Of a DNA stretch of 64,000 nucleotides, positions 33,001-36,000 are shown in pieces. The position numbers are program-made. The stretch is taken from the NCBI RefSeq assembly GCF_056712565.1, contig NZ_CM160072.1; one strand, 5' to 3'. Numbering within the stretch: the first letter of the stretch is position 1; every line of letters starts with the position of its first letter.

Positions 33001-36000
33001 TGACAGACTGAATGATATTATTGCGAAATACTATCCGGAAACCTTATCGCCCGTTTAACCCAAAGCACAGACTCAGTACATACACAAAAACATTCTGATA
33101 AATCTGGCGTCATTCAGAGCAAAAAAACATGTTTTCCAGATTATTTGTAAAAAAACATACTCCAGCTATGGTGGCAGGTAGTCTGATATTTCTGTTCATT
33201 ATTCTGCTGACATTTTTCTGGAAAAAAGCAGAGCTGGTGAATGACAGCCAGATCAGAGTTAATTTCGCACTTGGCTATATAGAAAACATTCTCAATCAGA
33301 ACAACAGCATCAGCCAGGAAGCAGAACATTTGCTTCTGAATAACTGTAACGCAGATACTCAGCATGAATTAAGCAATCTGCTGCTGAAACGCCCACAACT
33401 TCGTGCACTGAGCCTGGCAAGACAAGAGGCTGTATTTTGTAGCACCCACCCCGGTTTACCTGTCGGTCCAGTTGCTGAAAAGGAACAGTGGCGGCACGAT
33501 ATGCTGATTCGTTTTCCTGAAGATACAGGTACTCTGCCCTGGATCCTGTTAAGAACACCTTACAAAAACGGCACGGTCATTACCGCCACGGATTATTATT
33601 TTATTCAGGACATCATCTCTGTGGTTCATGCGGTTCCTGCAATACGATTCCGTTTGGGAAACACGGTCCTGTCAGCCAGCGGAAAAAATGTCACTCTGCT
33701 CCCGGACGACAGCGGTATACAAAAAGAAAGTCATTCAAAAAAATATCCGTTCTCCCTGATTTATATCATCCCGGTGAAAATGCAACTTACCTACGCCTGG
33801 AAACAGGCCTGGTATATGATCCCTGTTGCCATCTTCGGTGGAATACTCACAGCCTTTCTGCTGTCCCGCCGACGTCCATCTTCCCCGCTCGATATGCTGA
33901 AAAATGCACTTGCTCACGGAGAGTTCAGACCTTATTTTCAGCCCATCATTTCCGCTAAAAATCACCAGCTAACCGGCTGCGAAGTACTGATTCGCTGGCA
34001 TCACCCCGTCAGCGGAATTATCCCACCAGATCAGTTTATCCCGCTGGCAGAGTCCACCGGATTAATTGCCCCGATAACGCAACAGTTGATGTCTCAGGTC
34101 GAACATAGCCTTAATTCTGTTGCGCATTTTTTACCGAATCAATTTCATATTGGGATCAATATTTCACCAGCGCATTTTCTGTCTCCGGGACTGGAGGATA
34201 GCTGTATGAAGTTTCTATCCACCTTCCCGAAAGGGAAAGTGAAACTGGTTCTGGAACTGACAGAACGAAACCAGCTATCCGTCACCGCAGAATCAAAAGC
34301 GTTATTTGCGAAATTACATCAACAGGGAGTATTGTTTGCACTGGATGATTTTGGTACTGGCTATGCAACCCACAGCTACCTGCAGTCGTTTCCTGTCGAT
34401 TACATCAAACTCGATAAAGGGTTTGTACAAATGGTCGGCGTGGATGAAATCTCCGGGCATATAGTAGAAAATGTTATTGAGCTGGCTCGCCGGTTAGGTA
34501 TTGATATCATTGCCGAAGTCATTGAAACCGAATCACAGGAATTGTTCATGACAGAGAAAGGAAGCTGCTATCTGCAGGGATACCGCTATGCACCTCCACT
34601 ACCCGCTGAACAGTTTATTGCTGAGTGGGTATACAACAGCGGAAACGGCAAAAACCAGAGATAACACATACTGAAATGGACCAGGATATGCGTCCCCCCC
34701 TTTCACCTCATCTCCCAACTCCCGGGTTTGATTCCTTTTTCACAGCAAAAGGGACTGAGGGTACAAAAGAGGGTACATTTTTAACCAAACCAAACAAAAT
34801 TAACCAATCTCAACATGATAGAAGCAATCTTCGATTCCGAGTCCGGCACCACTATTCTAAAGAACCCGCCCACAAGGCGGGTTTTTGCTTTTGGATCTTT
34901 ATATAAAATAAACTTGGGAGCATAACGCCATCAGGTCTTAAACACTCCCGAATCATCAATAAACATCCCCCGTTAACAAAACACAGTTCAGTTCACATAA
35001 CATCCCTGTAATCCCACACATATCTGCTGGCCGAACGACGCCAGTGCGCGTACGGAGGCAAGAGCAGCCCTGCACATGGCAGCGCTTGTGGTAACCTGGT
35101 TTAATCCGGTGATAAAGGCATTTTACATGCATCTGTCAGCAGCCGGAAAAACCAAAAAAATGGCGCTGGTTGACTGTATGCGTAAATTGCTGACCATCCT
35201 GAACGCAATGCTCAGAAAGAACGAAGAGTGAAATGAATCGTAGCATCATGTTGCTCCATAATTTTTACGTTCAAGACAGTTGATTATCGGCGCATATGAC
35301 TCAAAAAGAGCCTGATGATTGCCTCTTTTCCATAGGCTCTTTATCTGAAGTGAAGGAAGGCCCGGAAGAAAGCACTCGCTGGCATACGTGACTCCAGCTC
35401 AACCGGAGATAATCACCACTGTTATTTTTCTATTTAATAATAATCTCCTGAAAAACAGATATAGCAAAAATACAATCCGGCCAGATTTAATTCCGCATTC
35501 ATTACCAGAAATAATCAACATCACAACTATCATATCATTCAATAGTCACCGCTAAAATTTTATTATTTTCCTCTTCTTTACATAGAAATTGTCAACCTGT
35601 TTATTATGCCGCTTTAAATAGTTAATCACAAAACAACATCACCATTATTTACGTGTTTTATTTATTAATAACATGGTCATACGTTCTTTTTTTACGAGGA
35701 AATAATCAATTGATAAATTGTTTTTGGTCTTGATAGTCAAGTGAGAAACATTTTAATAAATGATAAAAATCCTAAATTCCTTGTTCATAATGTAGGGGTG
35801 TGTTAAATAGGTGGGCAAAATTTGGTTCCCCTTCTCGCCTGTAATATTGCAGCATCTTCGCACCTCCATGAGACATTGCGACTTAATAAGAAGGTGATAA
35901 GTCCTGCATATAAGCATGGACTGACCATGGTTTTATATTCATTAAAAATTTTGTTACAACCCATTGATTTAGCATAAATAAATTATAGTGGGTTCGGGTT

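What the first reader, a model, noticed from the sequence alone, without database searches (positions are those of the whole stretch)
34830..34889. Island boundary: 22-nt tRNA-Phe 3' fragment plus retained terminator
Seen in sequence: ttcgattccgagtccggcacca matches the tRNA-Phe 3' end but is not preceded by the rest of the tRNA, and is followed by a hairpin-T5 terminator. Established knowledge: islands integrated at pheV/pheU carry the displaced tRNA 3' end as a direct repeat at the distal junction. Inference: everything from 1 to 34851 is one tRNA-Phe-associated island of more than 34.8 kb, and the intact tRNA and integrase lie left of the window. The kps locus is then flanking backbone or an older insertion.
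Basis: partly seen in the sequence, partly recalled or inferred. Interest (0 to 1): 0.45.

Follow-up and report, generated by a model that had tools for sequence, protein, structure and literature searches.

The report
Right end of known pheV island
This is the right-hand attachment site of a well-described ~56-kb pathogenicity island inserted into the pheV tRNA gene of K1-capsule E. coli, followed by the tRNA's original terminator; it is real, correctly read, and already published.

Summary
The 22-mer TTCGATTCCGAGTCCGGCACCA is at 34830-34851, is unique in the window, and is not part of a tRNA gene. It equals the last 23 nt of tRNA-Phe minus one G (GGG to GG).

The 47 nt after it, including the hairpin-T5 at 34860-34886, are the K-12 pheV 3' flank and terminator.

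In genomes 99.95-100% identical to the window (APEC O1, APEC E18055), an intact pheV and a P4-type tyrosine integrase lie 18-21 kb left of the window start. That gives a ~55.9-kb island ending at 34851.

The kps K1 locus (about 34899-53096) is a separate insertion between the pheV terminator and yghD. Some strains carry kps without the island, and others the island without kps.

All of this is published. PMC11537424 Table 1 lists this exact attR and island for APEC O1. PMC10272209 describes the 22-bp repeats, excision, and kps preceding the island in CC95.

Small additions from this work:
- The GG copy is island-borne, which places the crossover in the last 7 bp or fewer of the tRNA.
- The island supplies a replacement terminator at attL.
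- Candidate integrase arm-type repeats (GAGGGTACA x2) flank the relic.
- In one strain the relic served as the attachment site for a second island.

Novelty is nil and interest is low.

The parts
1..34829 (.). Right-hand 34.8 kb of the pheV-integrated genomic island (GI-pheV / PAI I APEC-O1 / CC95 'PAI-V'). It carries pgtPCBA, IS remnants, ireA, a CP4-like yee module with cbeA/cbtA, DUF4942, and an EAL-domain gene.
   Evidence: Colinear at 99.95-99.98% with APEC O1 3326061-3360882; annotation; island limits as in PMC11537424 Table 1.
33129..34664 (+). Last island gene, an EAL-domain (c-di-GMP phosphodiesterase-like) protein that reads toward the relic and the orphaned terminator.
   Evidence: ORF; annotated as EAL domain-containing protein; NCBIfam PRK10551 E=5e-79, below the curated cut-off.
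34720..34829 (+). Island-side arm (P arm) of attR. This ~110-bp block is conserved next to the relic even where the neighbouring gene differs.
   Evidence: Hits in other strains begin at query position 21-22, which is window 34720-34721; alignment A1.
34757..34777 (+). Two direct GAGGGTACA repeats 12 bp apart, candidate arm-type integrase-binding sites. A third, weaker match lies at 34625-34633 inside the EAL gene.
   Evidence: The same motif occurs three times between pheV and the integrase start at attL and nowhere else in 113 kb. The integrase has an Arm DNA-binding domain. Function is inferred.
34830..34851 (+). attR core: a 22-nt copy of the pheV 3' end (T-arm 3' strand, acceptor 3' strand and CCA) lacking one G of the GGG run.
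   Evidence: listed as attR TTCGATTCCGAGTCCGG-CACCA for APEC O1 in PMC11537424.
34852..34898 (+). Ancestral pheV 3' flank, displaced by the island. It contains the original rho-independent terminator: stem-loop 34860-34886, T run 34882-34886, then GCTTTTGG.
   Evidence: Aligns with K-12 pheV downstream sequence L003 1943-1990; terminator scan; fold -18.8 kcal/mol, z -3.9.
34899..53096 (.). Separate ~18.2-kb kps K1 capsule insertion between the pheV terminator and yghD. It holds an IS110 remnant (35049-35231), kpsFEDUCS (36041-43958, +), neuSECABD (44108-50556, -, 26-33% GC) and kpsTM (50606-52038, -).
   Evidence: K-12 homology stops at 34898 and resumes at 53097; annotation; composition. Strain LSC52 and many B2 strains have an intact pheV, the terminator and kps with no island. 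DEC5B and ETEC-2265 have the island without kps.
53097..64000 (-). Chromosomal backbone: the yghD/gsp type II secretion operon.

Best explanation

Integration recombined the island's attP, which carries a 22-nt GG copy of the tRNA 3' end, with the tRNA gene. As a result:
- The intact tRNA (GGG) stayed at the left end, attL, 18-21 kb left of the window. There it is followed by an island-borne hairpin terminator and the integrase gene.
- The island's own 22-nt copy ended up at the right end, joined to the tRNA's original 3' flank and terminator.

GGG always stays with the tRNA and GG always stays with the island arm. Strand exchange must therefore occur 3' of the G run, within the last 7 bp or fewer (GGCACCA). 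This step is inferred.

The relic with its arm is the substrate for integrase-mediated excision, which is reported in the literature. The orphaned terminator now lies 196 nt after the last island gene and ahead of kps region 1, so it probably terminates that gene's transcript. This step is also inferred.

kps is an independent, earlier insertion 47 bp downstream of the tRNA.
For: - The 22-mer is unique and not a tRNA gene.
- Intact pheV, a P4-type integrase (Arm-DNA-bind_3, Phage_int_M and Phage_integrase domains) and yqgA lie upstream in near-identical genomes.
- The window is colinear with APEC O1 GI-pheV.
- The flank 34852-34898 is the K-12 pheV terminator.
- The empty site exists at 100% identity in many B2 genomes such as NU14, APEC O18, UM146 and LF82: intact GGG tRNA, then ctattctaaag, the terminator and the kps edge.
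- The same GG relic with a related arm occurs in UPEC 26-1, DEC5B, ETEC-2265, and at pheU in CRE389.
- Synthetic swapped forms (GG in the tRNA at attL, GGG in this attR) have no perfect match in 5,426 genomes.
- Arm-type motifs cluster only at the two att sites.
- Published: APEC O1 GI-pheV is 55,888 bp at 3,305,017-3,360,904 with this attR (PMC11537424). CC95 has 22-bp repeats, at least 14 excisions and a circular product, and K1-cps precedes the PAI (PMC10272209).
Against: - The upstream tRNA and integrase are seen in near-identical public genomes, not in the window itself. The actual source strain is unknown.
- The crossover position, the arm-type sites and the new role of the orphaned terminator are inferences with no experiment behind them.
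- The motif GNGGGTAYA was derived from four of the six sites it recovers, and its total count is not above chance.
- The swapped-query census only excludes genomes that are otherwise identical to the queries.
- Strain E67 carries a GG run inside a longer 47-nt fragment of a different island. GG is therefore not exclusive to this island arm.
Confidence: 0.93

Rival explanations
1. The 22-mer is the stump of a tRNA-Phe gene whose 5' part was destroyed by an unrelated deletion or insertion. On this view it is a pseudogene, not a recombination site.
For: No tRNA body precedes it.
Against: The breakpoint coincides exactly with the repeat shared with an intact pheV about 56 kb upstream, next to an integrase. 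The same break, with a conserved island arm, recurs in unrelated strains and at pheU. Precise empty sites exist.
Confidence: 0.02
2. The island does not end at 34851. On this view kps belongs to one large pheV pathogenicity island that runs to yghD, as older definitions of PAI V in strain 536 had it, and the 22-mer is an internal repeat.
For: kps is foreign DNA relative to K-12 and lies directly beside the relic. Region 2 has 26-33% GC.
Against: kps occurs with an intact pheV and no island. The island occurs with the relic and terminator but no kps. kps has no integrase and no tRNA repeat at its right edge. The dated CC95 phylogeny puts kps before the PAI.
Confidence: 0.03
3. The missing G is a mutation that arose in attR after integration and stabilises the island by making the repeats imperfect. 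On this view it is not an original feature of the island's attP.
For: PMC11537424 discusses imperfect repeats as stabilising.
Against: The same GG form occurs with diverged arms (87-92% identity) in several phylogroups and at pheU. It accounts for most of the attR sequences listed in PMC11537424 Table 1. Excision is still inferred at least 14 times in CC95.
Confidence: 0.1
4. The repeat derives from pheU rather than pheV.
For: pheU and pheV are identical in sequence, and the same island end is found at pheU in CRE389.
Against: The 47 nt after the relic match K-12 pheV downstream sequence, not pheU. yghD/gsp follow.
Confidence: 0.01

Closest known systems
GI-pheV of APEC O1 (PAI I APEC-O1), the same as the 'PAI-V' of CC95 K1 E. 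coli
   Same: Essentially the same DNA at 99.95-100% identity. It has the same attR TTCGATTCCGAGTCCGG-CACCA, the same end coordinate (APEC O1 3,360,904), the same P4-type integrase at pheV, the same cargo (pap, tia, pgt, ireA, yee module) and the same kps K1 neighbour.
   Different: Nothing of substance. The source strain differs from APEC O1 by a handful of SNPs and indels. Some relatives lack an ISEc12 insertion left of the window.
PAI-CFT073-pheV and the ST131 GI-pheV (intP4.1 type)
   Same: Same site and same architecture: pheV, P4-type integrase, island, relic, pheV terminator, IS110 remnant, kps.
   Different: The attR copy is different (TTTCATTCCGATTCCGGGCACCA: three substitutions on the left, GGG retained). 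The island arm is unrelated and lacks the GAGGGTACA repeats. PMC11537424 places it in a different integrase allele group.
Satellite phage P4 and CP4-type cryptic prophages integrated at tRNA 3' ends
   Same: The integrase has the same domain set. Integration is into the 3' end of a tRNA gene, with the tRNA end duplicated. The yee/cbtA module is shared with CP4-44 (PMC11537424 discussion).
   Different: No P4 replication or capsid-size genes appear in the annotated parts, and the cargo is virulence and fitness genes. Comparison of the att arms with those of P4 was not tested here.
K-12 pheU downstream remnant (yjdQ)
   Same: The sequence after K-12 pheU (aattcatataaacggacctccacggaggtccgttttt…) is the same as the island-borne attL arm after pheV in APEC O1, hairpin included.
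   Different: In K-12 only about 400 bp and an integrase pseudogene survive. No distal repeat was examined.

Membership tests
tRNA-integrated genomic island with P4-type integrase (GI-pheV) | Intact target tRNA gene at the proximal end | tested here: met
   tRNA-Phe(GAA) lies next to yqgA in APEC O1 and E18055, 18-21 kb left of the window start. This was seen in near-identical genomes, not in the window.
tRNA-integrated genomic island with P4-type integrase (GI-pheV) | Tyrosine recombinase of P4 type encoded next to the tRNA | tested here: met
   A 420-aa protein starts 198 bp after pheV and has Pfam Arm-DNA-bind_3 (2e-29), Phage_int_M (3e-27) and Phage_integrase (8e-17) domains.
tRNA-integrated genomic island with P4-type integrase (GI-pheV) | Direct repeat of the tRNA 3' end at the distal end | tested here: met
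   22 of 23 nt are shared, with a 1-nt deletion in the G run. The copy is unique in the window.
tRNA-integrated genomic island with P4-type integrase (GI-pheV) | Precise empty site in related genomes | tested here: met
   The intact tRNA joined to the identical downstream flank and kps edge occurs at 100% identity in many B2 genomes. The K-12 pheV site was also examined.
tRNA-integrated genomic island with P4-type integrase (GI-pheV) | Integrase-dependent excision to a circular form | not testable with these tools
   Reported for this PAI type in PMC10272209: at least 14 losses in CC95 and a circular product.
Rho-independent terminator | GC-rich hairpin followed directly by a U run, downstream of a transcription unit | tested here: met
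   11-pair stem, 5-nt loop, T5, -18.8 kcal/mol, z -3.9. It is identical to the hairpin after K-12 pheV. Termination activity itself was not tested.
tRNA gene or pseudogene | Cloverleaf detectable by ARAGORN or Rfam | tested here: not met
   ARAGORN found 0 genes in the window, and there was no tRNA hit in Rfam at E<=10 for 34400-35400.

The most novel reading that the evidence does not exclude
The one-G-shorter copy is not decay. It is the island's own attP core. Because it never enters the tRNA, strand exchange by this integrase group is confined to the last 7 bp or fewer of the gene (GGCACCA). The island also brings its own terminator for the tRNA. The relic plus its arm, with GAGGGTACA arm-type sites, stays a live site used both for excision and as a landing pad for further islands, as in strain E67.
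Probability: 0.55. Interest if true: 0.2.

Novelty: already known. Interest (0 to 1): 0.08.

Why it matters
The result fixes the boundary between two separately acquired virulence blocks of K1 ExPEC: the pap/ireA island and the capsule locus. It adds nothing to the published picture beyond small mechanistic inferences about where the integrase cuts and how tRNA termination is preserved.

Tried and rejected
- Rfam at permissive E-values over 34400-35400 gave only sub-threshold, terminator-like matches (Trp_leader, P9 and others, all far below gathering). There is no hidden RNA gene.
- A search for further relic copies in the window, using both the 22-mer and the true 23-mer with up to 3 mismatches, found none. 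There is no third repeat inside the window.
- The total count of GNGGGTAYA is not above chance (3 found versus 1.9 expected). Only its clustering at the att sites is notable, and the pattern was partly derived from those sites.
- I considered that the post-CCA variant 'ctattctaaag' (K-12 has 'ctaattcttaag') might be a footprint of island traffic. I rejected this as unsupported, because the same variant follows intact pheV in many island-free B2 genomes. It is an ordinary lineage polymorphism.
- NCBIfam gave only a below-cut-off domain hit for the integrase, so Pfam was used instead.
- My first Python and fold calls failed on file names and reference syntax and were repeated.

Full report
**Observation.** The window reads …gatagaagcaatc TTCGATTCCGAGTCCGGCACCA ctattctaaagaacccgcccacaaggcgggtttttgcttttggatct….
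- The 22-mer occupies 34830-34851 on the + strand. It is the only match in 64 kb even with three mismatches allowed, and no shuffle produced one.
- ARAGORN finds no tRNA gene in the window. Rfam at E<=10 gives only sub-threshold, terminator-like matches around it.
- The hairpin at 34860-34886 has 11 pairs and a 5-nt loop, then a T run. It folds at -18.8 kcal/mol, z = -3.9.
- One correction: the genuine tRNA-Phe 3' end is TTCGATTCCGAGTCCGGGCACCA. The window copy lacks one G of the GGG run, and the exact 23-mer is absent from the window.

**Where the window comes from.**
- The junction region is 100% identical to many ST95-type K1 strains, such as APEC O1, APEC E18055 and ExPEC XM.
- Window 1-14939 and 13792-55899 align colinearly with APEC O1 at 99.98% and 99.95%. 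Window position 1 corresponds to APEC O1 position 3326061.

**The missing half of the island.**
- In APEC O1, yqgA is followed by an intact tRNA-Phe(GAA) at 3305017-3305092 and a 420-aa tyrosine recombinase at 3305290-3306552.
- The recombinase has the P4-type domain set: Arm-DNA-bind_3, Phage_int_M and Phage_integrase.
- After it come pap, tia and an IS element, and then the sequence with which the window begins.
- The tRNA ends 20,969 bp left of window position 1, which gives about 55.8 kb from the end of the tRNA to 34851. In APEC E18055, which lacks one IS, the distance is about 18.4 kb.
- Window 1-34829 carries pgtPCBA, IS remnants, ireA, a CP4-like yee module with cbeA/cbtA, DUF4942 and a terminal EAL-domain gene. 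The island is a mosaic, but one island bounded by att sites.

**The terminator.**
- K-12 pheV is followed by ctaattcttaagaacccgcccacaaggcgggtttttgcttttggatct. Window 34830-34898 aligns with this at 96% identity. The hairpin after the relic is therefore the original pheV terminator, displaced by the island.
- At attL the intact tRNA is followed by a different hairpin, aattcatatcaacGGACCTCCacGGAGGTCCgttttt (-17.6 kcal/mol, z -4.8).
- That attL sequence also follows K-12 pheU, beside the integrase pseudogene yjdQ. It is island-borne, so the island supplies a replacement terminator for the tRNA it splits from its own.

**kps is a separate insertion.**
- K-12 homology stops at 34898 and resumes at 53097, the yghD stop. 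About 18.2 kb (IS110 remnant, kpsFEDUCS, neu region 2, kpsTM) replaces about 100 bp of K-12 sequence.
- Strain LSC52 has an intact pheV, the terminator and kps with no island.
- Many B2 genomes (NU14, APEC O18, IMT5155, UM146, LF82) match an intact tRNA joined to this window's exact flank and kps edge at 100%.
- O55:H7 DEC5B and ETEC-2265 have the island end, the relic, the terminator and the K-12-like yghD flank, with no kps.
- The two elements sit 47 bp apart and are independent. PMC10272209 concludes from a dated phylogeny that K1-cps preceded the PAI in CC95.

**Mechanism.**
- Every attR of this island type that I examined has the GG form: the window, APEC O1, UPEC 26-1, DEC5B, ETEC-2265, and CRE389 at pheU. 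Every intact tRNA has GGG.
- The arm left of the relic is conserved for about 110 bp, starting at window 34720, even where the neighbouring gene differs.
- Synthetic swapped queries, with GG in the tRNA at attL or GGG in this attR, have no perfect match in 5,426 complete genomes.
- The empty site in the same lineage has GGG. GG therefore arrived with the island's attP and stays on the island-arm side of the exchange.
- attP and attB are identical to the right of the G run only through CACCA. Strand exchange should therefore lie within 7 bp or fewer (GGCACCA). This is an inference from sequence.
- CFT073's different island fits the same pattern. Its attR differs from the tRNA at three positions, all on the left, and is identical over the last 11 bp.
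- Two GAGGGTACA repeats 12 bp apart lie at 34757-34777. The motif GNGGGTAYA occurs three times between pheV and the integrase start, and nowhere else in 113 kb. Given the integrase's arm-binding domain, these are candidate arm-type sites. The pattern was partly derived from them.
- The orphaned terminator is the only terminator-like site on the + strand between the EAL gene stop (34664) and kps. It probably now ends that gene's transcript. This is inferred.

**Comparison with the literature.**
- PMC11537424 Table 1 lists APEC O1 GI-pheV at 55,888 bp, 3,305,017-3,360,904, with attR TTCGATTCCGAGTCCGG-CACCA. It lists the same attR for S88, ED1a, 536, H10407 and others, and the CFT073-type attR for intP4.1 islands.
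- PMC10272209 describes the K1-cps locus next to pheV in CC95 and a ~52-kb PAI carrying a P4-like integrase, ireA and papGII. It also reports 22-bp direct repeats, at least 14 excisions and a circular product.
- The finding is therefore already known. Neither paper uses the word terminator or discusses the crossover position, as far as my searches of PMC11537424 show. Those are small additions.

Noticed in passing
L014 (E. coli E67, NZ_CP121155.1) 23558-23581 and 647-670, minus strand: Tandem islands are present. The first island's 22-nt GG relic is followed directly by another hairpin (ctattcataaggcctcgctgcaaagcggggcttttt) and by a second, different tyrosine integrase with a type I restriction-modification island. 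That second island ends in a ~47-nt tRNA-Phe fragment (from the anticodon loop onward, also GG), then the pheV terminator and kps. The relic apparently served as the attachment site for a second element.
   Followed up: partly
L004 (K-12 pheU) 2150-2551, minus strand: The sequence immediately after K-12 pheU, including its hairpin terminator, is an island attL arm that sits next to the integrase pseudogene yjdQ. The terminator of pheU in K-12 is therefore itself island-derived.
   Followed up: partly
L011 (strain 1916D18) 1497-1523; L012 (E67) 1498-1522: A third pheV island type leaves a much longer tRNA fragment (gggattgaaaatccccgtgtccttgg… to CCA). This implies a different integrase with a longer core or a crossover further 5'. 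One copy has GGG and the other GG.
   Followed up: no
window 54598-62593: About 8 kb of the gsp type II secretion operon (gspL to gspD region) is present here but absent from K-12, where yghE and yghF are truncated remnants.
   Followed up: no
window 35049-35231: An IS110-family transposase C-terminal remnant lies between the pheV terminator and kpsF. It is conserved in every kps-positive strain examined (LSC52, CFT073, UPEC 26-1, E67), so it belongs to the left edge of the kps insertion and not to the pheV island.
   Followed up: partly
window 34852-34862: The 11 nt after CCA read ctattctaaag, whereas K-12, CFT073 and LSC52 have ctaattcttaag. The variant also follows intact pheV in island-free B2 genomes, so it is a lineage polymorphism just 5' of the terminator stem.
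   Followed up: yes
window 3077-9300: A complete pgtP / pgtCBA phosphoglycerate transport and two-component regulatory module sits inside the island, flanked by IS remnants.
   Followed up: no
L008 (strain CRE389) 1431-3152: The same island right end (EAL gene, arm and GG relic, 100% identical over 152 bp) is found at pheU next to cadC. This island type therefore uses both tRNA-Phe genes.
   Followed up: partly
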